Both the position numbers and the translations under genes were made by a program. The notes under the pieces are model-generated. The model did no database searches. It was not told the origin of the DNA and saw only the letters and a program-made list of their open reading frames with translations. From Squalus acanthias (Eukaryota), in NCBI GenBank assembly GCA_030390025.1, contig CM059431.1, forward strand, positions 157,668,001 to 157,732,000: a stretch of DNA of 64,000 bases, read 5' to 3'. Position 1 is the stretch's first letter, and every line of letters begins with the position of its first letter. Below are positions 7,175-39,927 of the stretch, piece by piece.

Positions 7175-7932
7175 GGCCCAAAAATTTGGCCTAATACGGG
7201 AGAGTACGCACTGTGTACTCACCCGTATTAGATCCCGAAGTGCCGGTTTCCTGCATGCACTGCGCATGCGCGGGAAACCGGCACTTCCGGTATGGCGAAG
7301 GGCGCGGTTACTAGGTGAACAGCGTGCGCGCTAGATGCTGTGCGCACGCAGCACACTTAGGTTTTTTTCAGGTTTCAACGCGAGGGTAAGTATGGAAGAT
7401 TATACACATGTAAAAAGGAGGCGTAAGACCCCTTTTGAACAAGGTAAGTAGTTAATTAAGTATAATTTTCTTTTTCAACAGTTTTATCTTTTTTAGAGAC
7501 TTTAAAGAAAGGTAAGTATATTTTTATAACTTTTAAACATTTTTTTAATTTTTTCAAAAATTTAAATTTTTGTTTAAAGTGGTTAATTTATTTAACTATA
7601 GTTATTTTATTAATGTAATGGTTTTTTTTAAATTTATTTGAGGTTTAGCTGTTCTTTTGGGGTCTCTTTCAATTCACAGATTTGACATGTCTCCTGTCAA
7701 ATCTATGAATGAAAGATAGTCTGCTGCCATTGGCTCTCCATGGCTCACGTGATCCCAGAGGTCGCATCGCACTAACTGCGCCCCTGGGACACACGCACAC
7801 TGCGCACCGGCACTAGGGAGCGGCCCAGGACCCGAAGTTCCTGTGGGCCCAAAACACAACGGCCGGCGCGGAGTGTGATATCGCGCGCGGTCCTTACCCC
7901 CGCGGCAAGCCTCCGAGTCAAATTTCTGGGCC
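7175..7932. mobile_element. Non-autonomous DNA transposon (MITE, PIF/Harbinger-like)
   Basis: TIRs ggcccaaaaatttggc / gtcaaatttctgggcc; 3-bp flanks aat/aac (CpG decay of AAC is plausible); it splits CR1 sequence cagcat-aac-gtctc. Superfamily is inferred. Confidence 0.8.
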
Positions 7933-8084
7933 AACGTCTCTAATTTTGTACTTAATACCTCTATTTATGTAGCCGACGATCCCATATGCTTTGCTAACCA
8001 CTCTCTCAATATATCCTGCTATCTTTAGGGACCTATGCATGTTAACTCACAGGACCCTCTGTCCCCTGTACTCTTTAAAACTGT

Positions 8085-14273: not shown

Positions 14274-14346
14274 CGCCTGAAATGGGACTTGAACCCTGAA
14301 CCCTCAGATTAAAAGTCTGATGCTGTACCGACTGAGCTACCCGGGC
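14274..14346 (-). tRNA. tRNA-Lys(UUU), diverged, probable pseudogene
   Basis: GCCCGGGTAGCTCAGTCGGTACAGCATCAGACTTTTAATCTGAGGGTTCAGGGTTCAAGTCCCATTTCAGGCG; mismatches in D, T and acceptor stems; no nearby T4 terminator. Confidence 0.88.
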
Positions 14347-14802
14347 TCTGCTTTCGGTGGGCCATACAACGACTTTCACTGGCTCACCAGCTGCATTACA
14401 CTCTCAACAAATTGCATTTGCTTCTCCAGTAATCCCGCCTGTACAGCGCATTACTCTCACACACCAGACTGACTGCACCAACCCCCACCGGCTTCACTTC
14501 AGGAACAGTCTCCCTCCCACAAAGGACACGCTCTTTACCAGCGGCCTCAGATGAGAACGGAGGTGTCAGTTTGTTGCAGTAAATAAATGAGGGCATCTGG
14601 CGCTTCTCTCCCTGACACTGGGACAGATTGTAAAGCAAGTTTCTGTTTATTATGAAAAAGTAAAGCAAACATCCATCCACTATCACCAATTGCTTTCTGT
14701 CTCTGAGGCAATTTTGTATCCATACCACCACATTCCACTCAAATCCAAGGGTTTCCAACTTTTTAATGAGGCACATATCCAGGTTTGACGATTATAAAGG
14801 AA

Positions 14803-15200
14803 GAAAGACTTGTATTTATATAACGCCTTTCATGACCATCAGACGTCCCAAAGCGCTTTCTAGCCAATTATGTACTTTTTGAAGTATAGTTACTGTTGTA
14901 CGGTACGAAACGCGGCAGGCAATTTCCGCTGAGCAAACTCTCATGAAGAGCAACGTGATAAGGATCAGATACTATGTTTTAGTGATGTTGATTGAGGGCT
15001 AAATATTGACCAGGACACCGGGGATAACTCCCCTGTTCTTCTTGGAAATAGTGCCACGTGATCCTTTACGTCCACCTGAGAGAGTAGACGGGGCCGCGGT
15101 TTAACGTCTCATCCAAAAGATGGCACCTCGGACAGTGCAGCACTCGCTCAGTACCGCACTGGATTATCAGCCTAGATTTATGTGCTCAGGTCTCTGGAGT
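14803..15200 (-). mobile_element. Deu-domain SINE (SacSINE1/AmnSINE-like) with L2-type tail
   Basis: Reverse strand reads ggtgccatcttttggatgagacgttaaaccg (Deu core); tail ggcgttatataaatacaagtcttt. Confidence 0.75.
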
Positions 15201-15553
15201 ATGCAAAGATATGCGGCATTGTCAGCAGTGTAGATGGAAGCATAAAATTACAGAGATATATTCATAGATTAAGTGAGTGGGTGAACTGTGGCAAATGCTT
15301 ATAAATATAAACAACTGTGAGGTCATCCACTTAGGACCTAAGAAGAATAGATCAGAATACTTTCTGAATGGTGAAAGACTAGAAACAGTGGAGGCCCAAA
15401 TAGACTTACGGGTCCATGTGCATATATCATTAAAATGTCATGGGCAGATACAGAATATAATCAGAAAAGACTTTTGGAATGCTGGTATTTATATCTAGAT
15501 GACTACAATATAAAGGGGCGAAGTTATGCTACAACTATGCAGAGCCCTGGTTA
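15200..15553 (+). mobile_element. CR1 fragment, left part; continues at 19700-20233 after a PLE insertion
   Basis: CEVIHLG..YFLNGERL..DLRVHVH (15277-15498). Confidence 0.85.
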
Positions 15554-15621
15554 TAATGTAATAAAAACAGAAAATGCTGGAAATACTCAGCATGTCAGGC
15601 AGCATCTGTGAAGAGAGAAAC

Positions 15622-15662
15622 AGAGTAAACGTTTCAGGTCGATAACTGTTCGTCAGAACTGA
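15622..15662 (-). ncRNA. Hammerhead ribozyme motif (PLE family B), partly degenerate
   Basis: Reverse strand reads agtt-CTGACGA-acagttatcgacct-GAAA-cgtttact; stem II is imperfect. Confidence 0.7.
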
Positions 15663-16417
15663 AAAAAGCTGGAGATGGAACAAGTTTTTATGCAAATTCA
15701 GGGGCAGGGATAGGGGGGAGGGGAGGAAGAAACAAAAGGGAAGGCTTGTGATATGATGGAAGGCAGGAGAGATTAAGAGACATTAAGAGAGATTAAGAGA
15801 TGGTGCAAGGCAAAAGGAGATGGTAATGGCACAAGTTAAGAAACAAAATATGGCTTTGGATGAAGTGTAAATGGCACTGGCAGAATGAAAGACAGCTGCC
15901 ATGTGGGAGTGAAATTTTTAAAAAGAAATAAATAAATAAAGTAAAATAAAATAAATGGAAGGAAAAGGATAGGGGCAGAGGTTATGATCTGAAATTGTTG
16001 AACTGTATGTTGTGTCCAAAAAGCTGTAAAGTGTCTAATCGAAAGATGAGGTGCTGTTCCTCGAGCTTACGTTGAGCTTAATTGGAACAGTGTAAGAGGC
16101 CGAAGACGGTGAGGTCTGAGTGGGAGTGGAGCGGAGAATTAAAGTGACAGGCGACCGGAAGCTCGGGGTTCCCCTTACGGACTGAACAGAGGTTTTCTGC
16201 AAAGCGGTCACCCAATCTGCATTTGCTATCTCCAATGTAGAGGAGACCGCATCGTGAGCAGCGAATACAGTATACTAAATTGCAAGAAGCACAAGTAAAT
16301 CGCTGTTTCGCATGGAAGGAAAATTTAGGGCCCTGGAAAGTGGGAAGTGTGGAGGTAAAGGAGCATGTGTTGCATCTCCTGCGCTTGCACGGGAAGGTGC
16401 CGGGGGAAGGGGTGTTA

Positions 16418-17686
16418 ACATAAGAACATAAGAAATAGGAGCAGGAGTAGGCCAATCGGCCCCTCGAGCCTGCTCCGCCATTCAATAAGATCATGGCTGA
16501 TCTGATCCTAACCGCCAATCTACTATCTACTATCACAGAACCATCTCCTGCATCTAACAATATTGCACACACGAAATAGGAGCAGAATCAGGCTACACGG
16601 TCCCTGGGCCCGCTCCACTACCCACAGGGCCATGACCGATCCGAACCTAGACTCATGTCCAAATTCCTGCCCGCTCCCCGTAACCCTTAATGCCCTTTAC
16701 TTCTAGGAAACTGTCTATTTCTGTTTTAAATTTATTTAATGATGTAGCTTCTACAGCTTTTTGTGGCAGCATATTCCATGGACCTACCACCCTCTGAGTG
16801 AAGTAGTTCCTCCTCATCTCAGTTTTGAAAGAGCAGCCCCTTATTCTAAGACTATGTCCCCTAGTTCTAGTCTCACCCGTCATCGGGAACATCCTCCCCG
16901 CATCCACCCGATCCAACCCCTTCACAATCTTATATGTTTCAATAAGATCGCCTCTCATTCTTCTGAACTCAAATGAGTAGAGTCCCAATCTACACAACCT
17001 CTCCTCATATGACCACCCCCTCATCCCCGGGATTAACCGAGTGAACCTTTTTTGCACTGCCTCGAGAGCAAGGATGTCTCTCCTTAAGTAAGGACACCAA
17101 AACTGTATGCAGTATTCCAGGTGCGATCTCACCAATACCTTGTACAACTGAAGCAATACCTCCCTATTTTTATATTCTATCCCCCTAGCAATGAAAGCCA
17201 AAATTCAATTTGCCTTCTTAATCACTTGCTGCACCTGCATACTAACCTTTTGAGTTTCGTGCACCAGGACCCCCAGATCCCTTTGCACTTCAGTACTCTC
17301 CAGTTTCTTGCCATTAAGATAATAAATTGCTCTAGGATTTTTCCTGCCAAAGTGCATCACCTCACACTTTCCAGTGTTGTATTCCATCTGCCAAATCTCT
17401 GCCCACTTACTTAGCCTGTCTATGTCCCCTTGCAGGTTTTTTATGTCCTCCTCACTCACTACTTTCCCTCCCATCTTAGTATCATCTGCAAATTTTGATA
17501 TGTTACACTTGGTCCCTTCCTCCAAATCGTTAATATAGATTGTAAAGAGTTGGGGACCCAGCACTGACCCCTGTGGAACACCACTAGTTACTGATTGCCA
17601 GTCTGAGAATGAACCATTTATCCCAACTCTTTGCTTTCTGTTAGATAGCCAATCCTCTATCCATGCCAGAATATTACCCCCAATCC
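16418..17686 (-). mobile_element. Relatively young CR1 3' segment inserted in PLE family B
   Basis: ORFs 17205-17564 (LGPQLF..FADDTK) and 16653-17201; (aacataag)n tail; gtgtt on both flanks. Confidence 0.93.
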
Positions 17687-19699
17687 CGTGTTGGGGGTGA
17701 TAGAGGAGTGGACCAGTGTGTCACAGAGGGCGCGGTCCCTTCGGACTGCGAAAGGGGAGTTGAGGGAAAGATGTGTTTGATTGTGGGATCACGCTGGAGG
17801 TGGCGACAATGGCGGAAGATGATCCGTTGAATGTGGAGGCTGGTGGGGTGAAAGATGAGGACAAGGGGAACCCTATCGTGGTTCCGGGAGGGAGGGGCAT
17901 GGGTGAGAGCGGAAGTGCGGAAAATGGAACGTACACTGTCAAGGGCCGTGTCAACCACAGTAGAGGGGAATCCTCGGTTAAGGAAAAAGGAAGACATCTC
18001 GGAAGCACGAGTATGGAAGGTGGCATCGCCAGAGCAGATGTGGCAGAGTCGGAGAAACTGCGAGAATGGAATAGAGTCCTTAAAGGAAGCGGTGTGGGAG
18101 GAAGTGTAGTACAGGTAGCTGTAGGAGTCAGTGGGCTTGTAGTGAATGGTTGTCAATAACCTATCCCCAGAGATGGAGTCAGAGAAGTCGAGGCAGGGAA
18201 GGGAAGAGTTGGAGATGAACTATTTGAAGGTGAGGGAAGGATGGAAATTGGAAGCAAAGTGATTGAAATGTTCCAGTTCAGGGCGAGAGCAGGAAACGGC
18301 ACCGATACAGTCATCAATGTACCAGAAAAAGAGGTGAGGGAGTGGAACTGAGCAGGAATAGAACAATGAATGTTGCACATATCCCACGAAAAGGCAGGCA
18401 TAGCTAGGACCCATGCGGGTTCCCATAGCAATACCTTTAATTTGGAGGAAATGAGCGGAGTCAAAGGAGAAGTTGTTTAATGTGAGAACAAGTTCACCCA
18501 GGCAGAGGAGGTTGGTGGTGGATGGGGACTGGTTGGGCCTCTGTTCAAGGAAGAAGCGGAGCGCCCTGAGGCTACCCTGGTGGGGGATGTAGGTGTAGAA
18601 GGATTGGACGGCCATAGCGAGAAGGAGACGTTTGGGGCCAGGAAACTGGATGCTGTTAAAGTGGCGGAGAGCATCAGAAGATTCGAGGATGTATGTGGGA
18701 AGAAACTGGACAAGGGGAAAAAAAATAGAGCCTAGATAGGAAGAGATATGTTCCATGGGGCAAGAACAGGCTGAAACGATGGGCCTACCAGGGCAGTCCT
18801 GTTTGTGGATCTTGGGACGAAGGTTGAAGTGGGCTGTGCGGGGTTGGGTAACTATGAGGATGGCGGCCGTGGAGGGAAGATCTCCAGAGAAGATGAGATC
18901 AGTGACGGTCTTGGAAACGGTGGCTTGATGTTCGGTGGGGGGGTTATGGTCCAGGCGCAGGTAGGAGGAGGTGTCGGAGAGTTGGCTTTCAGCGTCCGCT
19001 AGGTAGAGGTCGGTTCGCCAAACAACAACATTACCACCCTTATCAGCAGGTTTAATGACAATGTTGGGGTTGGATCTGAGAGAATGGAGTGCTGCAAGTT
19101 CAGAGGGAGGTAGGTTGGAGTGAGTGAGAGGAGCAGAGAAATGGAGACGGCCAATGTCACGCCGGCAGATAGCAATGAAAAGGTCCAGATAGGTTAAGAG
19201 GCCAGAGGGAGAGGTCCAGGTAGAACGAGAATTCTGAAAACGCGAGAAAGGTTCAGCTGTGCGGGGACAAGACTCCTGACCAAAGAAGTGGGCACGGAGA
19301 TGAAGGCGGTGGAAAAAGAGCTCAGCGTCGTGCCGAGCTCAACATTCCTTGAGGTGGGGGCGTAAGGGGATGAAGCTCAGGCCTTTGCTGAGGACTGATC
19401 GTTCGGGGTCAGAGAGGGGAATGTCAGAGGGGATAGTGAAAACAGGGCAGGGGGTGAGATTGGAAGAAGGGATGGGGTCAGAGGAACGTGAAAGGGAAGA
19501 AGGTTCCGGAGGGATGTTTGTGTCTAAGAGTTGTTGAAGCTTGCTATCCTTGACATCTGAAAGGAAGAAACAAGTTTTTTGTTAAAATGCCGGAGGAGGC
19601 GAAGGATGAAATGGAACTGCGGACCAGGACAGCTTTGAGATAGAGTGAGTCGGTGCTGCTGAAGAGTTTTGTTAAAGCGCCGGATGAGGCGAAGGATGT

Positions 19700-20233
19700 G
19701 GTTGAATGTGTTCAGTTCTGGTCACCACACATTAGGCAGGGTTTATCAGCCTTGAAGGGAGTACAGCCTAGATTTACCGGAATGATACATAGACTCCAAG
19801 GGTTAAATTACGAGAAGAGATTACTCAAATTAGGGTTGTATTACCTGGAATTTAAAAGCTTAAGGGGTGATTTGATTGAAGTTTTCAAGATATTAAAGGG
19901 AACTGATAGGGTAGATAGCAGAAACTATTTCCGATGGTTGGCGAGTCTAGGACGAGGGGGCAGAGTCTAAAAAATAGAGCCAGACCTTTCAGGAGTGAAG
20001 TTAGGAAACACTTCTACATGCAATGGGTGGTAGAAATTTGTAACTCACCTCCGCAATGTGCAGTTGATGCTGAGTCAATTTTTAATTTTAAACATGAGAT
20101 TGATCGTTTTTTGTTATCCTCCGGGATATCGGGAAATGGGCTATAAACGGAGTTGGGTCACAGATCACACATGATCTAATTAAATGGCGGAACAGGCTCG
20201 AGGGGGTAAATGACTCATTCCTGTTCCTATAAT
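19700..20233 (+). mobile_element. CR1 3' fragment, right part
   Basis: CVQFWSPH..LRGDLIEVFKI (19653-19970), RTRGQSLK. Confidence 0.88.
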
Positions 20234-20299
20234 GAGCGTGAAATGATCGTGTTTCAAGGTGCTGAACGCAAGTGGAAATGAGAATCGCGAATTTAAAAA

Positions 20300-20372
20300 A
20301 GCCCGTACAGGGACTTGAACCCGGGACCCTCAGATTAAAAGTCGGATGCACTGCCGACAGAGCGATCCAGGC
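20300..20372 (-). pseudogene. tRNA-Lys(UUU) pseudogene (duplicate of 14274-14346)
   Basis: GCCTGGATCGCTCTGTCGGCAGTGCATCCGACTTTTAATCTGAGGGTCCCGGGTTCAAGTCCCTGTACGGGC followed by a T run; A-box and anticodon-stem mutations. Confidence 0.88.
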
Positions 20373-20750
20373 TCTGCTGTCGGTGGCTCATACAACGACT
20401 TTAATTGGCTCACGTACTGCATTACACACTCAACCAATTGCATTTGCTTCTCCAGTAATCCCGCCTGTACAGCGCATTTCTCTCACAAACGCAGACTGAC
20501 TGCCCCCCACCGGCTTCACTTCAGGAACAGTCTCCCTCCCACAAAGGACACGCTCTTTAACAGCGGCTTCAGATGTGAAAACGGAGGTGTCAGTTTGTTA
20601 CAGTAAATAAATGAGGGCATCTGGCGCTTCTCTCCCTGACACTGGGGAAGTAGTGAGACAGACTTTACAGCAAGGTTCTGTTTGTTTTGAAAAAGCAAAG
20701 AAAGTATTGTTACGGAATTATCCAGACTTCAATCAATGCTAAAAGAGTTC

Positions 20751-20822
20751 TGACCCCAACGTGATTAGAACACACAGCCTTCTGATCTGGATTCAGACGC
20801 GCTACCGTTGCGCCACGAGGTC
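20751..20822 (-). tRNA. tRNA-Trp(CCA), slightly diverged (possibly pseudogene)
   Basis: GACCTCGTGGCGCAACGGTAGCGCGTCTGAATCCAGATCAGAAGGCTGTGTGTTCTAATCACGTTGGGGTCA with TTTT downstream; C32A and T-loop G57T changes. Confidence 0.9.
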
Positions 20823-20969
20823 ATATCAGCGCGCACAATAAAGCAGCAAACTGCTCAGAATACCCAACAGGTAGCACAGCTTCCGAAAAACAAATAAACT
20901 TTCGGCGTCTAGACAGTAGTTATAACTACAAAGAAGGCCGTGTGAAAATATAAACTGTGGGTGTGTGTA

Positions 20970-30705: not shown

Positions 30706-31416
30706 GCCTCTTTCTGTGCTGTATAACTCTATGTTTCTATGACTTCTTGTAATATTCACATTTACTGTTTGCCCAAAAAATTACTTGTCACATTCATTTC
30801 CTGTTACACCACAGACATCAAAGTTCTAGTGAATCCTTTCACTCGTTCCAAATGGCAGTGGTTCTGCTAGTTCTAATTACGTGAGAAAAGTTTATTCATT
30901 TTACAACTGTTTAGAAAGAGAGTTTATGTGATAGATTGTTAATATTGTTTCCAGATAATTAACACACGATAGAAATATCGGGCAATACAGGACCATTTAA
31001 AAGATAGGATCAATTGGAGGCCATTCAGTCCCTCAATTTAATTCGGCCGATAACTTCGGTGAGAACTGACATTTGATAAGGTGCCACACAAGAGTTTATT
31101 AAACACAATTAGGGCTCATTGGATTGGGGGTAATATATTAGCTTGGATTGAGGATTGGTTAATGGACAGAAAAGAGAGACTAGGAATAAACGTGTCATTT
31201 TCGGGTTGGCAGGCTCTAACTAGTGGGTTACCGCAACGATCAGTGCTTGGGCCTCAGCTATTCAGAATCTCCATCAACGATTTTGATGAGGGGACCAGAT
31301 GTAATATATGCAAGTTTGCTGAAGATATAAACCTGACTGGGAATGTAAACTGTGAGGAGGATGCAAGGAAGCTTCAAGGGGATATAGACCGGCTAAGTGA
31401 GAGGGCAAGAACAAGG

Positions 31417-32326
31417 TGGATCAGTAAATTTGCTGATGACACCAAGATTGGTGGAGTAGTGGATGAGGTGGAGGGCAGTTGTAGGCTGCAAAGAGACATT
31501 GATAGGATGCAGAGCTGGGCCGAAAAATGGCAGATGGAATTTAACCCTGATAAGTGCGAGGTGATTCATTTTGGTAGGGCAAATTTGAATAAGGATTACA
31601 GGGTCAACGGCAGGGTTCTGAGGAACGTGGAGGAGCAGAGGGATCTGGGGGTTCATATCCACAGATCTCTGAAGGTTGCCAATCAAGTGAATAGAGCAGT
31701 AAAGAAGGCCTATGGTGTGTTGGCGTTTATTAACAGAGGGTTTGAGTTTAAGAACCGTGAGGTTATGCTGCAACTGTACAGGACCTTGGTGAGACCACAT
31801 TTGGAATATTGTGTGCAGTTCTGGTCACCTCACTATAGGAAGGACGTAGAAGCATTGGAAAGAGTGCAAAGGAGATTTACCAGGATGCTGCCTGGTTTGG
31901 GGGGGAGGTCTTATGAGGAAAGATTGAGGGAGTTGGGGCTTTTCTCTTTAGAGCGGAGGAGGATGAGAGGCGACTTAATAGAGGTTTATAAGATGATGAG
32001 GGGGATAGATAGAGTGGATGTTCAGAGACTATTTCCTCGGGTAGAGGCAGCTGTTACAAGGGGGCATAACTATAAGGTGCATGGGGGGAGATATAGAAGG
32101 GATGTCCGAGGTAGATTCTTTACTCAGAGAGTGGTTGGGGTGTGGAATGGACTGCCTGCTGTAATAGTGGAGTCGGACACTTTAGGAACTTTCAAGCGGT
32201 TATTGGATAAGCACATGGAGCACACCAGAGTGATAGGGAGTGTGATAGCTTGATCTTGGTCTCGGACAATGCTCGGCACAACATCGAGGGCCGAAGGGCC
32301 TGTACTGTGCTGTACTGTTCTATGTT
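31417..32326 (+). mobile_element. Young 5'-truncated CR1 nested in CR1
   Basis: Open frame WISKFADDTKIGG...FKRLLDKHM to its stop; 3' stem-loop and ttctatgtt tail; aagg on both flanks; absent from the paralog. Confidence 0.92.
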
Positions 32327-32984
32327 AAGGCAAATGAAATATAATGTGGAGAAATGTGAAGTTATCCACTTTGGTAGGGAAATAGAAAAGCAGTGTATTT
32401 TGTAAATGGTGAGAGATTGGGAAATGTTGGTGTTCAGAGGGACCTGGGTGTCCCTGTACACGAATCACTGAAAGTTAACATGCAGGTACAGCAAGCAATT
32501 AGGAAAGCAAATGATATGTTGGCCTATATTACAAGAGGATTTGGGTATGAGTAGAGACGTTTTACGGCAATTATGCTGGGCCCTGGCGAGACCACACCTC
32601 AAATATTGTTACAGTTTTGGTCTCCTTATCTAAAGAAGGATATACTTGCCACAGAGGGAGTGCAACGAAGGTTCACCAGACTGGTTCCTGGGATGGGGGG
32701 ATTGTCCTATGAGGATAGATTGAGTAGACTAGGTCTATATTCTCTTGAGTTTAGAAGAATGAGAGGGGATCTCATTGAAACATACAAAATTCTTACAGGG
32801 CTTAAGGGGATAGATGCAGGGAAGATGTTTCCCCTGACTGGGGTGTCTAGAACCACGGATCACAGTCTCAGAATAAGGGGTCGGCAATTTAGCACTGAGA
32901 TTATGAAAGATTTCTTCACTAAGAAGCTAGTGAATCTTTGAAATTCTCTACCCCAGAGGGCCGTGGAGTTTCGTCGTTGAGTAT

Positions 32985-33376
32985 ATAGAAACTAGGAGCA
33001 GGAGTAGGCCATTCGGCCCGTCGAGCCTGCTCCACCATTCAATACGATCATGGCTGATCATCCAAATCCAGTACCCTGTCCCTGCTTTATCACACAGAAT
33101 CCCCATCGAACCTGCACCGACACATATCCCACCCTATCCCCGTAACGCCACATATTTAATCCCCCCCTAACACTAAGGGTCAATTTATCATAGCCAAATC
33201 AACCTAACCCGCACATTTTTGGACTGTGGGAGGAAACCGGAGCACCCGGAGGAAACCCACGCAGACACGGGGAGAATGTGCAAACTCCACACAGACAGTC
33301 ACCCGAGGCCAGATTCGAACCCGGGTCCCTGGCGCTGTGAGGCACCAGTGCTAACCACTATGCCACCGTGTTGCCC
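32985..33376 (-). mobile_element. HE1-like V-SINE with CR1(HER1)-type 3' tail
   Basis: Reverse strand: GGGCAACACGGTGGCATAGTGGTTAGCAC (A box), GGTTCGAATC (B box), V-domain ctgcgtgggtttcctccgggtgctccggtttcctcccaca, tail ggccgaatggcctactcctgctcct. Confidence 0.92.
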
Positions 33377-33387
33377 AAAGGAATTGA

Positions 33388-33482
33388 TGCTCTAGGCGAG
33401 GCTCGACACTCGCAACCTCGGCATTTCCCGAGCCTGTACTGTCATATAAGTACCGCGCGCTAACCGATTGCGCCACTAGAGC
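33388..33482 (-). tRNA. Intron-containing tRNA-Ile(UAU) copy (20-nt intron 33425-33444), probably retroposed
   Basis: GCTCTAGTGGCGCAATCGGTTAGCGCGCGGTACTTATA-tgacagtacaggctcgggaa-ATGCCGAGGTTGCGAGTGTCGAGCCTCGCCTAGAGCA; canonical 37/38 intron position; extra G in the T-loop. Confidence 0.93.
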
Positions 33483-33739
33483 CCCGCATTAAAGAGATAG
33501 ATCAATAGATATTTGATTATTATGGAATCAATGGATATGTATATATTGCGGGAAATTGGAGATGAGGTAGAAGATCAGCCGTGATCTCAATGAATGGCGG
33601 AGCAGGCTCGAAGTGCCAATTAGCCTACTCCTGCTCCTATTTCTTATTTTCTTATGTTCTCTACAGCAACACGCATCCGTAGGCACTTGTGTGTTTTAGC
33701 TAATGTTCATATGAAGTTTCTGTGATTGTGCTGTCAAAC

Positions 33740-34678
33740 ATTGAAATCTTTATTTTCGTTCATGGACAAATTCGTGTGCACCTTTGGAAGTGGATTAGTG
33801 AGTTGCAGTGAATGGTGGGACATAACGGTAATGGCAATGTTGATGAATGTGAAGGAATGGCTTGGGCATTGTAGGGATGCTTTGTGGAATTGATGTGGCC
33901 TGTCGCCAACCTGGCGCATCATGTGGCAGCCAGGTTGTGCAGCGTCAAGTGAAGTAAATCTGCCCATGGTGAGGCCTTCTCTGGTGTCCCGTCAGTAGTG
34001 TGGTCGGGTGTTGATGCTCTCTGTGCTGTGCAGCATCTATTGATTGCGGAGAAGTTTTGTGTTCTTGCTGGTGCTGCTGGTGCGCCTGGTGCTGCTGGTG
34101 CTGGGGCTGATCTTGTTGGGATTCTGAGGAACAAATTCAGATAGTTTCGATGCCACCGATGTGATGTAATTGTTGGTAGGTGAAGTTGAGATGACAGAAG
34201 CGACCTGTCAATGGTGAGAAAGGTTGTTCCAATGAAGTGACACTGGATAACACGTTTACTCAAAGACTTGCAACCTGCATAAAGCTCAATCTGACTTCCA
34301 AATGGAGTAAAGAACAGCTTCTGAGCGTTGAAAGTGAACAGCTATGAGATGGGATCTTTTATAGAACATTTCCAGCTGTCAAGTAATGAGATGCTTCCAT
34401 GGCCATTCAACTCGCCCTGCTTACCTGACGCGATCCCCGAGCAACGTGGACCCCGTGGGCGACCAGGTAAAATCTGAATGTGAGCTCAAAATTATTTTTA
34501 AGTGGCTCTTAACTAGATCATAAGGAACTAAATTGCCTCCCCCCGCCGCCGCGTGTCGGGTCTGTTCAGAGTTGAAAGACCCGACATCAGGGAGACTCCC
34601 GTGGCGGCGGGTTGATATGAAAAAGTCCCGTCGACCCGTCACAAAACGCGCCCGCTGACCCCCCAAAAAATTCCCCCT
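33740..34678 (-). mobile_element. Probable Harbinger-derived DNA transposon remnant (paralog ~37660-38558)
   Basis: End aaaattccccc resembles the MITE TIR class; the paralog encodes AAREARVGHTMARF, resembling HARBI1-type C-termini (recalled, not searched). Confidence 0.45.
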
Positions 34679-34882
34679 CAGTGTCTGGCCGGGGTATTCA
34701 GGATTCCGCCCGCCGAGTAGCTCCCAGGGCGACATGTACTGGTCCTTGGAGCACATGGAATTGATTGAAATTCACTGATCTCAGGTTACGCCTGGCGATT
34801 AGCGCCAGCTCCAGATGTGCGGGGGTTCGGGTGCTGCACAGCCAGGACCTCAGATCCAATTCTCGCCCATAATGACAATATT

Positions 34883-34960
34883 AGGGGTCCGGTAGCACAG
34901 TGGTTATGTTACTGTCCAAGTAATCCAGAGGCCTGGACTAAGGACCCGGAGACACGCGGT
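34883..34960 (+). mobile_element. tRNA-derived SINE head fragment (paralog 38768-38845)
   Basis: ggtagcacagtggttatgttactg..agtaatccagaggcc; A-box-like, truncated before the B box. Confidence 0.55.
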
Positions 34961-36369
34961 CTCTGTGGTCCCCTGATCCAGCTCCCTTCCTCGGCCCAAG
35001 GTTCTTGTTATTAAACTGAGAGCGGTGTTGCTCCCCATACTTTCTAGATTTACGTCCCTGCTCGTTCAACACAGTCACGTGATTATTGTGGGGATCTTAT
35101 TTTAACAGGAAATTTAAACAAGATGTTTCAGTTCTTTAAACAGGAACTGAAGTTTCATGAAATGACGTGTATATTCAAATGTTATAACATTCCGATGTGT
35201 AAATAAGGTGACTGTCAAATGTGTGCCATCGAATTCAGTATTTTGGCAGCAATTTAAATGGTCACTGTTAACAGTAACAGATTTAGATGGTTTATGACAA
35301 TTAGATTTTCAGAGGTGATGAGGTCTATTTCCAACAATGTCACTATTTTACTGATGTATTTCTGTAGATGCGGCGCTGCTTAATGTTCTGTACAGCTGAA
35401 ACTGACGGTGGATTTAGTAAACCCGTAGTGTCAGGTCTGGTGGTGTAATAAAATATTTATTGGAATCGCAGCTTCATGGTCAGAAAAACTGGCTGAATGT
35501 TCAGTGTTAATGGTCTTAACTAAACTCAGAACATGTGATGTTGGTTTTGTTACTTCCATATTCAGTTATTTTCGCTGAGTGATTTCCTCTGTTGCCAGGG
35601 TAACAAACTGTCAGCTCTCAGTACAAGAGGCCTTTTCTCCAATTCATATCCGAAAGACCGTCAAACATTCAATGTAAACTCCTGACTATTTACTCTTCAT
35701 TCCGGGAGTAGGGACGTTTCCTGGAATAATTTTAATTCAATGACCACAATTTTAACATGAGATTAAAAAGCTGTTGTGTTGGAGCAGTAGGTTATATGGA
35801 TACATAAAATTCGTCATGCTTCCTCTTGCCATGGTTTAATAATGCTTCTTATATTGATAAAGCCTGTTTCAACCACTTTCTGAAAAGTGAATATTGCTCC
35901 ATGTGTTCGCACATGTTCCAACATTTGCACATGTCCGCCTGCCTCTTCCTAAAAACTCATTGAAAATACATTCTAGTTCATCAGTTTGAGTTTAAGCAAT
36001 TCCATCGTGATTCACCAGTAATTTATTAATTCTTGTTTGTAAAACACACTTCTTGTAAGATTCTCATTTACTGTTGGCCTGTTATTACCTGTTATATTCA
36101 TTTGCTGTTACACCTCAGACATCAAAGTTCCAGTGAATCTTTTCACTCGTTCCAAATGGCAGACGGTCTGCTAGTTCTAATTACGGGAGAAACGTTTCTT
36201 CATCTTACAACTGTTCAGAGATAGTTAATATCTGATAGATTATTAATATTGGTTCCAGATAATTAACACATGATAGAAATATCGGACAATACAAGACCAT
36301 AGATAGATAGGAACAATTGGAGGCCATTCAGTCCCTCAATCCTGTTCCGCCAATAACTTAGGTGAGAAC

Positions 36370-37550
36370 TGGCATTCGATAAGGTGCCACACAAAAAGTT
36401 ATTAAACAAAAGTAGGCCTCATGGGATTGGGTTAATATACTAAACTGGATTGAGCATTGGTTAATGGACAGAAAAGAGAGAGTTGGAATAAACGGGTCCT
36501 TTTCGGGTTGGCAGGCTGTAACTAGTGGGATACCGCAAGGATCAGTGCTTGGGCCTCAGCTATTAACAATCTACATCAATGATTTGGATGAGGGGACCAA
36601 ATGTAATATATCCAAGTTTGCTTATGATATAAAGCTGGGTTGAATGTAAGTTGTGAGGAGGTTGCAAGAAGGCTTCAAGGGGATATAGACAGGCTAAGTG
36701 AGTGGACCAGAATAAGGCAAAAGGAATATAACGTGGAGAAATGTGAAGTTATCCACTTTGGTAGGAATAATAGAAAAATAATGTCTTTTTTAAATTGTGA
36801 GAGATTGGGAAATGCTGTTATTCAGTGGGACCTGGGTGTCCCTGTACACGAATCACTGAAAGTTAACATGCAGGTACAGCAAGCAATTAGGAAAGCAAAT
36901 TGTATGTTGTCCTTCATTACAAGAGGATTATAGTATAAGAGTAAAGACGTCCTACGGCAATTATGTAGGGGCCTGGTGAAACCACACCTGAAGTATTGTG
37001 TACAGTTTTGTTCTCTTTACCTAAGGAAGGATATATTGCCACAGAGGGAATGCAACGAAGGTTCACCAGCCTGATTCCTGGGATGGGGGGATTGTCCTAT
37101 GAGGCTAAATTGAGTAGACTAGGCCTATGGTCTCTACATTTTAGAAGGATGATGGGTGATCTCATTCAAGCATACACAATTCTTACTGGACTTTTCAGGT
37201 TAAATGCTGGCAGGATGTTTCCCCTGGCTGGGGAGGCTAGAACCAGTTCTCACAGTCTCAGAATAAGGGATCGGCCATTTAGTACTGAGATGAGGAGAAA
37301 TCTCTTTACTCAGAATGTAGTGAATCTTTGGAATTCTCTACCCCAGAGGGCTGTGGAGGATTAATCGTTGAGCATATTCAAGAAAGAGATCGATAGATAT
37401 TTGAATATTAAGGGAATCAAGGGATATGTGAATAGTGCAGCAAGTGGAGATGAGGTAGAAGATCAGTCATGATCTCATTGAATGGCGGGCCATGCCCGAA
37501 GGGCCAAATGGCCTACTCCTGCTCCTATTTCTTATTTTCTTATGTTCTTA
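36370..37550 (+). mobile_element. CR1 3' segment (uninterrupted paralog of 31070-33660)
   Basis: ORFs 36640-36933 and 36996-37364; 3' tail. Confidence 0.92.
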
Positions 37551-39927
37551 CAACAACACGCAAGGGTAGATACCTGTGTGTTTTAGCCAATGTTTATATG
37601 AAGTTTCTGTCAATGTGCTGTCAAACATTGAAATCTTTACTTTCAACATTTTCATTTCTTGGACAGATTTGTGTGCACCTTTGGAAGTGGGTTAGTGAGT
37701 TGCAGTGAATGACGACATATAACGGTAGCTCTCGCAATGCTGATGAGTGTGAAAGAAATGGATTGTGCATTGTAGAGATGCTTTATGGTGTTGGTGTGGT
37801 GCACCATGTGGCAGCCAGGGGGTAAATCGTCAAAATAAACTAAATCTGGCCATGGTGTGGCCTACCCTGGCCTCCCGGGCAGCAGTTTCTCGGGTGCTGA
37901 TGCTCTGTGTCCTGTGCAGCATCAGTTGATTGTGGAGACATTTTGTGTTGTTATTGATGCTGCTGGTGCGCCTGGTGCTGCTGGTGCTGGGGCTGATCTT
38001 AGTGGGAATCTGAGGAGCAAGTTCACATAGTTTTGAAGCCACGGATGCAGATGTAATAGATGGTGGGTGAAGTTGAGATGACAGAAGCGATCTGTCAATG
38101 GTGAGAGAGGTTGTTCCAATGAGGTTGACACTGGATACAGGGTTTACTACAAAATCTTGCAACCTCCGTAAAGCTCAATCTGTCTTCCAAATGCAGTAAG
38201 CAACACTTCTGAGCTAGGAAAGTGAGCAGCTGTGAGATGGGAGCTTTTATAGCACATTTCCAGCTGTCAAGTAATGAGATTTTTCCATGGCAATTCAACT
38301 CAGGCCCTGCTTAACTGACGTGATCCTCGAGCAACGTGGGCGACCTGGTAAACTCTAAAGTTGAGCACAAAATTCTTTTAAAGTGGCTCTTAACAAGGTC
38401 ATAATGACATAAGTTGCCTCTCCCTCCGCTGCTTGTCTGGTCTGTTCAGAGTTGACATACCCGCCATCTGCGAAAGTCGCGTGGCGGAGAGTTGAAAACA
38501 AAATTCCCACCCGACCCATCACCAAACGCGCCCGCTGACTCCCCAAAAAATTCTCCCCTCAGTGTCTGACCCGGGTATTCAGGATCCCGGATGCCCGAGT
38601 AGCTCCCAGGTCGACATGTACTGGTCCTTAGAGCACAGGTAATTGATCTAAATGCACTGATATCAGGTTACACCTGGCGATTAGCGCCAGCTACAAATGT
38701 AGGGTGTTCGGGTGCTGCACAGCCAGGACCACAGAATCCAATCTCCTGCCCATAATGACAATATTAGAGGTCCGGTGGCACAGTGTTTATGTTACTGTCC
38801 TAGTAATCCAGAGTCCCGGACAAATGATCCGGAAACACGCGGTCTCGGTGTTCTGATCCAGCTGCCGGCCTCGGCCGATGGTTCTTGTTATTAAACTGAG
38901 AGCGGTGTTTGTCCCCATACTTTCTAGATTTACTTCCCTGCTCTTTTAGCACAGTCACGCGATTATTGTGGGAAACTTTTTTAACAGGAAATAAAAACAA
39001 GATGTTTCAGTTCTTTAAACAGGAACTGGAGTTTCATGAAATGACGTGTACATTCAAATGTTACAACATTCCGATGTGTAAAGAAGATGATTGTCAAATG
39101 TTTTGCCATCGGATTCTGTGTTTTAGCAACAATTTAAATGGTCACTGTTAACAGTAACAGATTTAAATGGTTTAAGACAATTAGATTTTCAGAGTTGACG
39201 GTGTCTATTTCTAACAATGACTATTTTATTGATGTATTTCTGTAGATGCGGCGCTGCTTAATGTTCTCTACAGCTGGAACTGACGGTGGATTCAGTAAAC
39301 CCGCAGTGTCAGGTCTGGTGGTGTAAAAATCCGTTATTGGAATCGCAGCTGCAAGGTTAGAAACACTGGCTGAATGTTCAGGGTTAATGTTCTGAACTAA
39401 ACTCCGAACATGTGATGTTGGTTTTGTTACTTCCATATTCAGTTATTTTCGCTGAGTGAGTTCCTCTATTGCCAGGTTAACAAACGGTCAGACCTCACTA
39501 CAAGAGGCTTTGGCTCCAATTTATATCCGAAAGACCGTCAAACATTCAGTGTAAATTCCTGTCTGTGCAGTCGGCACTCCAGGAGTAGGGACATCTTCTG
39601 AATAATTTTAATACAATGGCCACAACATTAAAATAAGATTATAAAGATGTTGTGTAGCAGCAGTAGGTTATATGGATAAACATAATTCGTAATACTTCCC
39701 CTTGCCATTGTTTAATAATGCTTCGTATATTGATAAAGCCTGTTTCAACCACTTTTTGAAAAGAGATCATTGCTCCAGGTGTTCGCACATGTTCCAACAT
39801 TTGCATATGTCCGCCTGCCGTTCTTGGCCTCTTCCTACAGATGCAGTGAAAAGACATTTCAGTTCATCAGTTTGAGTTTGAGCAATGCCATCAAGATCCC
39901 CCCATAATGAATTAATTCTTGTTTCTA

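What the first reader, a model, noticed from the sequence alone, without database searches (positions are those of the whole stretch)
32985..33487. Retroposed chimera: unprocessed pre-tRNA-Ile(UAU) (leader, intron, UUU trailer) fused to an HE1 SINE
Seen on the - strand, in order: a ~5-nt leader (gcggg), tRNA-Ile(TAT) with its 20-nt intron, an 11-nt trailer tcaattccTTT, then immediately the first base of a full HE1-like SINE with its CR1-type tail. The whole ~500 bp interrupts a CR1 (gttgagtat|attaaag) and is absent from the paralogous CR1 at ~37370 (gttgagcatattcaag), so it arrived as one unit. Its limits match a nascent Pol III precursor rather than a mature tRNA or a genomic duplication. Inference: it formed by template switching or RNA ligation during CR1 retrotransposition (analogous to U6/L1 chimeras), or by Pol III read-through of a weak T3 terminator. 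The latter would make it a dimeric SINE with an intron-containing tRNA head.
Basis: partly seen in the sequence, partly recalled or inferred. Interest (0 to 1): 0.85.

Follow-up and report, generated by a model that had tools for sequence, protein, structure and literature searches.

The report
Pre-tRNA fused to SINE, retroposed together
A 503-base insert made of an unprocessed isoleucine tRNA precursor joined head-to-tail to a complete SINE was copied into this site as one piece, and the same kind of fusion recurs elsewhere in the genome with isoleucine and other tRNAs, which points to the LINE reverse transcriptase hopping from SINE RNA onto freshly made tRNA transcripts.

Summary
On the minus strand lie a 7-nt leader, a degenerate tRNA-Ile(UAU) with its 20-nt intron, an 11-nt trailer ending in TTT, and a full 392-nt SINE. 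They form one 503-bp insert with no target duplication. A paralogous duplicate at about 37376 lacks it.

It is not unique. Five other loci with unrelated flanks carry the same pre-tRNA-Ile + SINE structure. Homology to the tandem-array tRNA-Ile gene runs only from -7 to the terminator T-run.

The six copies do not form a lineage. Their SINE bodies fall in three monomer subfamilies, their junctions take five forms, and their heads share no derived changes.

Thirteen SINE copies directly follow other complete tRNAs. Seven of the 13 start within 0-2 nt of a T4+ run, against a genome baseline of about 2%. The Lys and Phe chimeras are unit insertions into transposons, and their homology to the source gene stops at or within 2 nt after the terminator.

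Best reading: recurrent end-to-end template jumps of the LINE reverse transcriptase from SINE RNA onto oligo-U pre-tRNAs. This is a new variant of U6/L1-type chimeras. A read-through dimeric SINE is not excluded.

The parts
33483..33489 (-). 7-nt 5' leader ATGCGGG of the pre-tRNA. The first two bases (AT) are ambiguous with the target site.
   Evidence: It matches the bases just upstream of the tandem-array tRNA-Ile gene. It is shared in full by 3 of 5 other chimeric copies (L014, L005, L007); L002 keeps ATG but lacks CGGG, and L004 lacks the first 3 nt. Upstream of it all copies differ.
33388..33482 (-). Degenerate tRNA-Ile(UAU) with its intron, 95 nt. It has an extra G in the T loop, and T-stem pair 50-64 is changed from T-A to C-G.
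   Evidence: Alignment to the array gene shows 3 substitutions and 1 insertion in 109 head positions. ARAGORN and Rfam do not call it.
33425..33444 (-). 20-nt tRNA intron, retained, directly 3' of position 37.
   Evidence: It is identical to the intron of the array gene. ARAGORN reports a 20-nt intron in the array gene.
33377..33387 (-). 3' trailer tcaattccTTT, ending in the T-run of the gene's terminator. The gene has T4; all chimeras have T3 or fewer.
   Evidence: Homology to array genes ends here. The gene continues Tgttgtgtgattttt; the window continues with the SINE.
32985..33376 (-). Full-length HE1-like SINE, 392 nt, class A one-unit form. A box at 33355-33365, B box at 33312-33320. The sense strand has no T4 run.
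   Evidence: It has 1 mismatch in 391 nt to monomer L003 and is 97-99% identical to other monomers. 10,657 copies in the genome share its first 19 bases.
32987..33062 (-). LINE-like 3' tail of the SINE, ending in TTTCTAT. Other copies end in (TTTCTATG)n.
   Evidence: It is 84% identical over 76 nt to the 3' tail of the host LINE at about 33570-33644 on the plus strand.
31063..32253 (+). Reverse-transcriptase ORF remnant of the host LINE, whose 3' region is interrupted by the insert.
   Evidence: Pfam RVT_1, E 1.7e-14.
37330..37430 (+). Uninterrupted paralogous (empty) site in a duplicated segment.
   Evidence: Flanks align to 36713-37375 and 37380-38076 at 85.5% and 80.7%.
32764..33304 (.). 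Stretch deleted on the alternative haplotype scaffold C3503: 541 bp, from inside the SINE into the flank, with 3-bp overlap.
   Evidence: Locus L031 aligns to window 31316-32763 at 100% and to 33305-35000 at 99.2%.

Best explanation
Window 32985-33489 is a chimeric retrocopy. Its 5' part is a primary Pol III transcript of a tandem-array tRNA-Ile(UAU) gene. That transcript still carries its 7-nt leader, its 20-nt intron and its trailer up to the oligo-U end. It is joined end-to-end to a complete SINE RNA, and the pair was inserted as one unit.

Most likely mechanism (inferred, not shown):
1. During target-primed reverse transcription of the SINE RNA, the partner LINE's reverse transcriptase reached the SINE's 5' end.
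2. It added a few non-templated bases.
3. It jumped onto the 3' oligo-U end of a nascent pre-tRNA and copied that to its 5' end.

The event is recurrent. The same enzyme and SINE system produced at least six full-length and one or two truncated Ile chimeras, plus chimeras with at least seven other tRNA species. The preferred donors are tRNA genes or pseudogenes amplified in tandem arrays of roughly 70 (Ile, exact 3' exons listed) to over 350 (Phe) copies, whose precursors should be abundant or poorly processed.

Shown: the unit insertion, the transcript-like limits, the recurrence and the concentration at terminators. Inferred: the template jump itself, the role of non-templated A's, and which LINE did it.
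For: 1. Unit insertion. The paralogous segment lacks all 503 bp, with no target duplication.

2. Transcript limits. 35 of the 40 scored matches are array genes. They match the window only from 33489 to 33377, that is -7 to the T-run.

3. Recurrence. Two anchor patterns find 6 loci plus the haplotype duplicate, all with unrelated flanks on both sides.

4. No lineage signal.
- The six SINE bodies fall in three structural classes. Each class also contains plain monomers and chimeras with other tRNAs.
- Junctions take 5 forms in 6 copies, while the next 13 SINE bases (GGCAACACGGTGG, the anchor) are invariant in all 6.
- Heads share no derived change except a trailer A/G. That variant is also polymorphic among array genes, with 4 array copies carrying G.

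5. Generality. Of 49 hits for a B-box 15-45 nt upstream of the SINE start, 12 were fetched and 10 have complete tRNAs: Lys, Glu, Asp x2, Arg, Gly, Phe x2, Leu, Ser. Three of 3 fetched from the 46-76 nt control also have tRNAs.

6. Concentration at terminators. 7 of these 13 have a T4+ run 0-2 nt before the SINE. The baseline is 217 matches per 10,657 SINE starts; 0 of 16 monomer flanks have one. Binomial P is 2e-9.

7. Replication with other tRNAs. The Lys and Phe chimeras interrupt transposons whose paralogs are continuous. Their homology to the source genes starts at -1/-2 and ends at the T4 run for Lys, or 1-2 nt after it for Phe.

8. Partner always complete. In the 6 full-length Ile loci and the truncated copy L104 the SINE start is complete to within 1 nt. 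The possible eighth case, L003, lacks the first one or two G's. No T3-ended Ile trailer is joined to anything else.

9. Precedent read in passages. The Bombyx R2 reverse transcriptase needs non-templated addition, mostly of A's, for template jumping onto an acceptor 3' end (PMC8857657). A CR1 reverse-transcriptase switch from a SINE to a tRNA was proposed for PittSINE (PMC5729268).
Against: 1. All eight Ile chimeras have T3 or fewer, where every array gene seen has T4. Six of the eight have a G right after the T-run, as the gene does. The Phe chimera shares 1-2 bases (A, G) with its gene beyond the T4. A terminated transcript should not carry those bases. One source locus with a weakened terminator would explain the uniform T3+G.

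2. The window's SINE shares two private variants with only one other copy, L003. L003 is itself preceded by a trailer-like tcaaatctttg. That hints at a common composite source. However, their junctions and trailers differ at 3 places.

3. The window's head differs from the array gene at 4 of 102 positions, while its body differs from the class consensus at 3 of 392 (Fisher P 0.04). No assembled gene carries these head variants.

4. Some tRNA-adjacent copies lie beyond a strong terminator: Asp_b after T6aaaT5, and most of the control-bin cases. Some adjacency is therefore DNA-level.

5. No U6 or 5S fusions were found with short recalled motifs. A jump onto any oligo-U RNA would predict some.

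6. No RNA or enzymatic evidence was obtained.
Confidence: 0.6

Rival explanations
1. Dimeric SINE made by read-through. A SINE landed at the terminator of one or a few tRNA-Ile array genes, leaving only T3. Pol III then transcribes from the tRNA promoter through the SINE, which has no T4. The LINE recognises the SINE tail and retroposes the dimer. The window copy is progeny of such a master or of an earlier dimer copy.
For: - There are six copies with the same leader, trailer and T3.
- The 505-nt sense strand has no T4; the first T4 lies 196 nt downstream.
- T3 plus G is uniform, where the gene has T4 plus G.
- The window and L003 share two private body variants, and both are linked to an Ile trailer.
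- The heads are 4-fold more diverged from the array gene than the bodies are from their class consensus: 22/612 against 21/2418. A dispensable head decaying in a source lineage would look like this.
Against: - No master in a native array context exists in the assembly. All 6 loci have unrelated flanks starting at -7.
- The bodies belong to three monomer subfamilies, and the heads share no derived changes.
- There are five junction forms in six copies.
- The same geometry is seen for at least seven other tRNAs, each of which would need its own precise terminator insertion. Only about 2% of SINE copies abut a T4 run.
- The Lys and Phe chimeras lack a leader.
Confidence: 0.22
2. RNA ligation before reverse transcription. 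The pre-tRNA 3' end is ligated to the SINE RNA 5' end, as proposed for U6/L1 chimeras with RtcB, and the ligated RNA is then copied.
For: The join is end-to-end and exact, complete RNA to complete RNA, in the 6 full-length Ile cases and L104. The idea for U6/L1 is recalled from the literature and was not read here.
Against: - Zero to six extra bases of varying sequence sit at the junctions: GT, AGT, A, GAAAA, GAAGGT. That is the signature of non-templated addition rather than ligation.
- From general knowledge, a Pol III pre-tRNA ends in 3'-OH and a SINE RNA starts with a 5' triphosphate. These are not RtcB substrates.
Confidence: 0.08
3. DNA-level adjacency. A resident tRNA-Ile gene or a genomic duplicate of one was later hit by a SINE, or the pair moved by segmental duplication.
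For: - The window does contain a cluster of tRNA genes at 14274-20823.
- Some SINE copies do sit beyond terminators of tRNAs.
Against: - The paralogous site lacks both parts, and the break points are exact.
- Homology to tRNA-Ile genes ends at -7 and at the T-run.
- Five other copies have unrelated flanks.
Confidence: 0.03

Closest known systems
U6/L1 and related chimeric retrocopies of mammals (template-switch chimeras)
   Same: - A complete small Pol III RNA ending at its oligo-U is fused in sense orientation to the 3' partner.
- The fusion is inserted in one event and formed again and again.
Background was read in passages of PMC4476161 and bioRxiv 10.1101/2025.02.02.635956.
   Different: - The partner here is a full-length SINE joined at its very 5' end, not a variably truncated LINE.
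- The donor is a pre-tRNA with leader and intron. The tRNA/L1 chimeras described in the 2025 preprint are mostly half tRNAs in antisense.
- There is no poly(A) and no target duplication.
- The enzyme is a LINE with a (TTTCTATG)n-type tail.
PittSINE of pittas, derived from TguSINE1 (CR1-mobilised)
   Same: A template switch of a CR1 reverse transcriptase from a SINE RNA to a tRNA was proposed as the way a SINE gains a new head (PMC5729268, passages).
   Different: - There the new tRNA head replaced the old head and founded a family.
- Here the whole SINE is kept and the added head is an unprocessed precursor.
- The events here are seen as individual, recent, low-copy insertions.
Pre-tRNA-derived tailless retropseudogenes of mammals (Schmitz et al. 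2004)
   Same: They are retrocopies of tRNA precursors, which argues for capture of nuclear, unprocessed Pol III RNA. I saw this only as cited in PMC4476161 and PMC3747384; the paper itself was not read.
   Different: Those stand alone without a SINE or LINE partner and are ascribed to L1.
Dimeric or composite SINEs (Alu, Tu types, GarnAlu and the like)
   Same: They consist of two Pol III-derived units in tandem that can move as one (PMC7245038, passages).
   Different: - Those families have a uniform junction and their own lineage.
- The six copies here have five junction forms, three body classes and no shared head changes.
End-to-end template jumping of non-LTR reverse transcriptases in vitro (Bombyx R2 / BoMoC)
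   Same: The jump goes from the 5' end of one template to the 3' end of another, after non-templated addition that is mostly A (PMC8857657, passages).
   Different: - That is an in vitro property of an R2-clade enzyme.
- The paper suggests jumping may not be needed in vivo and that overhangs of 3 nt or more are unproductive.
- The data here are genomic footprints only.

Membership tests
Template-switch chimeric retrocopy (U6/L1 type) | The 5' part is a complete small Pol III transcript ending at its terminator T-run. | tested here: met
   Homology to the array gene runs from -7 to the T-run only. The same holds for the Lys and Phe chimeras against their genes.
Template-switch chimeric retrocopy (U6/L1 type) | Both parts are in the same orientation and inserted in a single event. 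| tested here: met
   The paralogous site is empty for the whole 503 bp. The Lys and Phe chimeras interrupt transposons that are continuous elsewhere.
Template-switch chimeric retrocopy (U6/L1 type) | Independent recurrences occur, with variable junctions and partners. | tested here: met
   There are 5 junction forms in 6 Ile copies, 3 SINE classes, and 10 + 3 fusions with other tRNAs.
Template-switch chimeric retrocopy (U6/L1 type) | The 3' partner is 5'-truncated at variable internal points. | tested here: not met
   The SINE start is complete to within 1 nt in the 6 full-length Ile loci and L104; L003 lacks the first one or two G's. The two other T3-ended trailer matches are chance hits. 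The search required near-exact trailers.
Template-switch chimeric retrocopy (U6/L1 type) | The reverse transcriptase actually switches templates. | not testable with these tools
Dimeric/composite SINE family | Several copies exist at unrelated sites. | tested here: met
   There are 6 loci plus a haplotype duplicate.
Dimeric/composite SINE family | The copies share a uniform junction and diagnostic changes, forming their own lineage. | tested here: not met
   There are five junction forms and three body classes shared with monomers. The heads carry only private changes plus one polymorphism also present in the genes.
Dimeric/composite SINE family | The element is transcribable as one Pol III unit: a promoter in the head and no terminator inside. 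| tested here: inconclusive
   The sense strand has no T4. In the window copy the head's B box is broken by an inserted G.
Functional tRNA-Ile(UAU) gene | A cloverleaf is recognised by tRNA finders. | tested here: not met
   ARAGORN, with and without introns, and Rfam find nothing at 33388-33482.
Functional tRNA-Ile(UAU) gene | The gene has native flanks and a T4+ terminator. | tested here: not met
   The flanks are LINE sequence, and the T-run is T3 followed by the SINE.
HE1 / V-SINE of sharks and rays | A tRNA-like head with A and B boxes. | tested here: met
   TGGCATAGTGG and GTTCGAATC lie at composite positions 125 and 170.
HE1 / V-SINE of sharks and rays | The 3' tail is shared with a LINE of the same genome. 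| tested here: met
   76 nt at 84% identity to the tail of the host LINE, which has an RVT_1 ORF.
HE1 / V-SINE of sharks and rays | Identity to the published HE1 consensus and the V-SINE central domain. | not testable with these tools
No repeat library is on hand. The name HE1 and its partner HER1 were seen only in a table of PMC3747384.

The most novel reading that the evidence does not exclude
The LINE reverse transcriptase that moves this SINE habitually ends SINE cDNAs with a few non-templated A's. These pair with the UUU-OH ends of nascent, La-type Pol III precursors.

On this reading the genome holds a fossil record of primary pre-tRNA transcripts, showing their true 5' starts, introns and termination points. 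It also holds a standing supply of new two-headed SINEs.

The tRNA-Ile(UAU) fusions would then be a dimeric SINE caught at birth. They come from a tandem array with at least 70 exact gene copies listed and include a very young pair (this locus and L003).
Probability: 0.3. Interest if true: 0.75.

Novelty: new variant of a known kind. Interest (0 to 1): 0.6.

Why it matters
How SINEs acquire new heads, and how dimeric SINEs arise, has mostly been inferred from old, uniform families. Here the raw products are visible:
- individual, recent insertions;
- complete primary Pol III transcripts, still carrying leader, intron and oligo-U end;
- each welded to the exact 5' end of an active SINE;
- for eight tRNA species including Ile.

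This extends the U6/L1 chimera phenomenon to a SINE partner, to pre-tRNA donors and to a non-L1 LINE in a non-mammalian vertebrate. It supplies in vivo footprints of the end-to-end jumping known from R2-type enzymes in vitro.

It also suggests that tandem arrays of tRNA genes and pseudogenes, numbering roughly 70 to over 350 copies, feed the process. The idea is directly testable with a retrotransposition assay and with nascent-RNA sequencing.

Tried and rejected
- **tRNA finders on the window.** Default ARAGORN and Rfam, at both gathering and E-value thresholds, do not see the window's tRNA. Intron-aware ARAGORN also fails on it, and mislabels the array gene by placing the intron one base off.
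- **First gapped pattern.** Its gap was too narrow and it missed the window. It was widened.
- **First tree.** A tree of the first 275 SINE bases was uninformative because 18 of 40 copies were dropped by my length filter. It was replaced by the structural alignment.
- **L003 upstream.** It does not match the tRNA head beyond the 11-nt trailer-like stretch: score 26 against 21 +/- 4 for shuffles.
- **Chance hits.** L105 and L106 are trailer-like hits with no tRNA. L117 and L118 are T3-ended trailer matches with neither tRNA nor SINE; I estimate about 4 such matches by chance.
- **U6 and 5S tests.** The U6 3'-end motif gave no hit. The 5S motif gave one hit, which Rfam does not call 5S. These motifs were recalled and only 10 nt long, so the test is weak.
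- **Sequencing runs.** Runs of other organisms hold about 0.3 of the sampled words, roughly the SINE's share of the stretch. No conclusion is drawn on polymorphism, expression or presence in relatives.
- **Earlier findings.** The search of earlier findings returned nothing.
- **Supplements.** No supplementary files of any paper were opened.
Full report
**What is there**

Read on the minus strand, the window carries these parts in order:
- ATGCGGG at 33489-33483;
- a tRNA-Ile with anticodon TAT at 33482-33388, including a 20-nt intron at 33444-33425;
- the trailer tcaattccttt at 33387-33377;
- a SINE from 33376 to 32985.

ARAGORN and Rfam do not report the tRNA. The reason is visible in the alignment to the genome's own tRNA-Ile(UAU) genes. 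The window copy has an extra G in the T loop. It also has T-stem pair 50-64 changed on both sides and one trailer change. That makes 3 substitutions and 1 insertion in 109 head positions.

The window is part of a 3.7-Gb eukaryote assembly that can be searched.

**One unit, inserted into a LINE**

Both flanks align to a second, uninterrupted copy of the same segment: 36713-37375 at 85.5% and 37380-38076 at 80.7%. At the junction the paralog reads straight through (gagcat|attcaag). The window has 503 extra bases and no target duplication. A 2-nt 'at' can be assigned to either end.

The host has a reverse-transcriptase ORF at 31063-32253 (RVT_1, E 1.7e-14). Its 3' tail is 84% identical over 76 nt to the SINE's tail. 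The SINE therefore shares its tail with a LINE of this genome. I did not test whether that LINE is of the CR1 clade, and the name HE1 could not be checked against a consensus. I saw it only in a review table (PMC3747384).

A second scaffold, C3503, is 99.2-100% identical to this locus but lacks window 32764-33304. This is a 541-bp deletion running from inside the SINE into the flank. It is a derived allele or assembly variant, not a tRNA without the SINE.

**The head has the limits of a primary transcript**

A 141-base query across the head was scored on 40 of 331 candidates. Thirty-five of the 40 are tRNA-Ile genes in tandem arrays, 33 on C2450 with a 1638-bp period and 2 on C188. They match only window 33489-33377.

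- Upstream of ATGCGGG the gene and the window differ.
- Downstream, the gene continues from its T4 run into gttgtgtgattttt, whereas the window has T3 and then the SINE.
- A second group of tRNA-Ile genes on C26 has a different leader and trailer, so the head comes from the array type.

**Not unique, yet not a family**

The exact 26-nt junction occurs only here and on C3503. One more locus matches with 3 mismatches.

With anchors in the tRNA and the SINE and a free gap, 7 places are found, that is 6 loci plus C3503. A second anchor pair finds no further locus. In the five other loci the flanks on both sides are unrelated to the window and to each other. The copies begin at or near the same leader and end in (TTTCTATG)n.

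They do not behave as one lineage:
- **SINE bodies.** They fall into three structural classes: class A one-unit (window), class A with a 47-bp internal duplication (L002, L014), and class C (L004, L005, L007). Each class also holds plain monomers and fusions with other tRNAs.
- **Junctions.** Between the T-run and GGGCAAC there are five forms in six copies. The next 13 SINE bases (GGCAACACGGTGG, the anchor) are identical in all six.
- **Heads.** They carry private changes only. The one exception is a trailer A/G that is also polymorphic among array genes, with 4 array copies carrying G.

One further copy is 5'-truncated. L104 has the last two tRNA bases, the trailer, four extra bases and then the SINE, with no tRNA upstream. 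L003 may be a second truncated copy.

**The same thing happens with other tRNAs**

A pattern asking for a B-box 15-45 nt upstream of the SINE's first 19 bases gave 49 hits. They break down as follows:
- 4 are Ile copies;
- 8 are partial SINE-SINE dimers;
- several are heads of other SINE families;
- I fetched 12 that looked like tRNA 3' ends.

ARAGORN finds complete tRNAs in 10 of the 12: Lys-CTT, Glu-TTC, Asp-GTC twice, Arg-TCG, Gly-GCC, Phe-GAA twice, Leu-AAG and Ser-CGA. Rfam confirms the 4 of these that I submitted.

A control with the gap moved to 46-76 nt gave 36 hits. Five looked tRNA-like, and all 3 that I fetched have tRNAs.

In 7 of these 13 the SINE starts 0-2 nt after a T4+ run. 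In 6 of the 7 it is the first such run after the tRNA. An eighth case has T5 followed by 3 nt.

For comparison, genome-wide there are 217 matches of 'T4 within 0-2 nt' per 10,657 SINE starts. Runs longer than T4 are counted more than once in that figure. None of the 16 monomer copies that reach their 5' end has one. The binomial probability of 7 or more in 13 at that baseline is 2e-9.

**Replication of the transcript limits**

- The Lys-CTT chimera interrupts a transposon that is continuous in three other copies.
- One Phe chimera interrupts a LINE reverse-transcriptase ORF that is continuous in two other copies. Both have a leader of 0-1 nt.
- The Leu chimera has an approximately continuous paralog in the window at 7771-7934.
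- The two Asp chimeras share a 5-nt leader with unrelated sequence upstream.
- For Lys, homology to the source genes starts at -1/-2 and ends exactly at the T4 run. For Phe it ends at the T4 run plus 1-2 shared bases.
- The Phe head carries a variant 3' acceptor strand. That variant occurs at 358 places in the genome (1 mismatch allowed), mostly in arrays with a period of about 2032 bp.

The donors are therefore tandemly amplified tRNA genes or pseudogenes. For Ile, 71 exact copies of the 36-nt 3' exon were listed, and 171 copies with up to 3 mismatches.

**Mechanism**

The join is complete RNA to complete RNA. The 3' end of a Pol III precursor meets the 5' end of the SINE, with 0-6 extra bases of varying sequence between them. 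The whole is inserted once.

A DNA-level origin would need a SINE to land exactly at the terminator of many different tRNA genes, although only about 2% of copies abut any T4 run. The resulting dimers would then also have to be retroposed.

The simpler account is an end-to-end template jump during target-primed reverse transcription. For the Bombyx R2 enzyme, jumping needs non-templated addition. With balanced dNTPs that addition is mostly A, and jumping works best with 1-2 overhanging bases complementary to the acceptor's 3' end (PMC8857657, passages read). A's on the cDNA would pair with a UUU-OH end.

One observation may fit this idea. Twelve of the 16 monomers have TT and 4 have T just before GGGCAAC. 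Those T's could be part of the SINE RNA or could come from A-addition. I could not tell which.

A CR1 reverse-transcriptase switch from a SINE to a tRNA has been proposed for a bird SINE (PMC5729268). Pre-tRNA retropseudogenes are cited for mammals (PMC4476161).

**What does not fit**

- All eight Ile chimeras have T3 or fewer where the genes seen have T4. Six of the eight have G next, as the gene does. The Phe chimera shares A, and possibly G, with its gene beyond the T4. A terminated RNA should not carry these bases, whereas a source locus with a weakened terminator would explain them.
- The Ile heads are about four times more diverged from the array gene (22 of 612, leaving out the leader and the polymorphic trailer site) than the bodies are from their class consensus (21 of 2418). 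Fisher P is 5e-6. Part of this is gene heterogeneity. At least 26 standalone copies differ by one base in the 3' exon, and L002's A68G variant is present in five genes.
- The window's own head variants occur in no assembled gene.
- The window's SINE shares two private variants with only L003 (1 mismatch in 391). L003 is itself preceded by a trailer-like 11-mer. That suggests a shared composite source, yet the two junctions differ at three places.
- No U6 or 5S fusions were found, though only with short recalled motifs.

For these reasons I keep a read-through dimeric SINE at about 0.2.

**Comparison and verdict**

This works like the U6/L1 class of chimeric retrocopies but differs in four ways:
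- the donor is an intact pre-tRNA with leader and intron, whereas the tRNA/L1 chimeras of a 2025 preprint are mostly antisense halves;
- the partner is a full-length SINE;
- the join is end-to-end;
- the LINE is not L1.

It fails the tests for a uniform composite SINE family. I rate it a new variant of a known kind, of real interest to people who study retrotransposons, because it shows SINE head acquisition as individual recent events.

I found no description of such pre-tRNA/SINE fusions in five full-text searches. That library lacks most subscription papers and any repeat database, and I opened no supplements.

Noticed in passing
window 14274-14346, 20300-20372, 20750-20823 (all minus strand): This is a cluster of tRNA genes: Lys-TTT, a second weaker Lys-like copy and Trp-CCA. 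Similar flanks around the two Lys-like copies suggest a tandemly duplicated unit of about 6 kb. None is followed by the SINE.
   Followed up: partly
window 32285-34189 versus 36713-38076: This is a segmental duplicate, 81-85% identical, extending beyond the LINE tail on both sides. It supplied the empty site.
   Followed up: yes
G000 C5:59822027, C7:114070932, C8:94543358, C10:70009830, C10:80626172, C12:94095237, C22:56948845, C23:21587180: Eight partial SINE-SINE dimers. A SINE fragment ending at ...GAGTTTGCA is followed by 0-7 variable bases and a complete SINE start. The break point is constant while the junction bases vary, which may be another product of template jumping.
   Followed up: no
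G000 C2450 (for example 3345354-3384698) and C188: Tandem arrays of tRNA-Ile(UAU) genes with a 1638-bp period. 71 exact copies of the 3' exon were listed, and 171 with up to 3 mismatches. The C188 copies are markedly heterogeneous.
   Followed up: partly
G000 C357, C581, C1428, C3680, C3729, C3732 and others (L120, L121): Tandem arrays with a period of about 2032 bp hold a tRNA-Phe variant, 358 matches in all. Its 3' acceptor strand reads TTTGGGCA instead of TTTCGGCA. By my reading that gives a G-G mismatch in the acceptor stem. It is the donor of one Phe-SINE chimera.
   Followed up: partly
L085 (G000 C4:77535584-77535790): A tRNA-Arg(TCG) head carries a 16-nt insert next to the anticodon loop. 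ARAGORN reads it as an intron. Rfam scores the tRNA at 42 bits.
   Followed up: no
L028-L030, and the Lys, Glu and Asp_b chimeras: A second SINE form has the same head and body but a different 3' end (...ccgaaatggcctctatctgcactgtggggattctgtga, with GATTCTGT repeats). This suggests a second LINE partner. It also forms tRNA chimeras.
   Followed up: partly
L003 (G000 C11:72691387-72691793): This is the closest relative of the window's SINE, with 1 mismatch in 391 and two shared private variants. It is preceded by tcaaatctttg plus 5 extra bases, with no tRNA upstream. It may be a 5'-truncated Ile chimera.
   Followed up: partly
(runs X6-X14): Runs labelled as other organisms hold about 0.30 of the sampled words of window 32600-33900, roughly the SINE's share of the stretch. 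Near-identical SINE copies may therefore exist in relatives. Nothing could be laid, so this is unverified.
   Followed up: no
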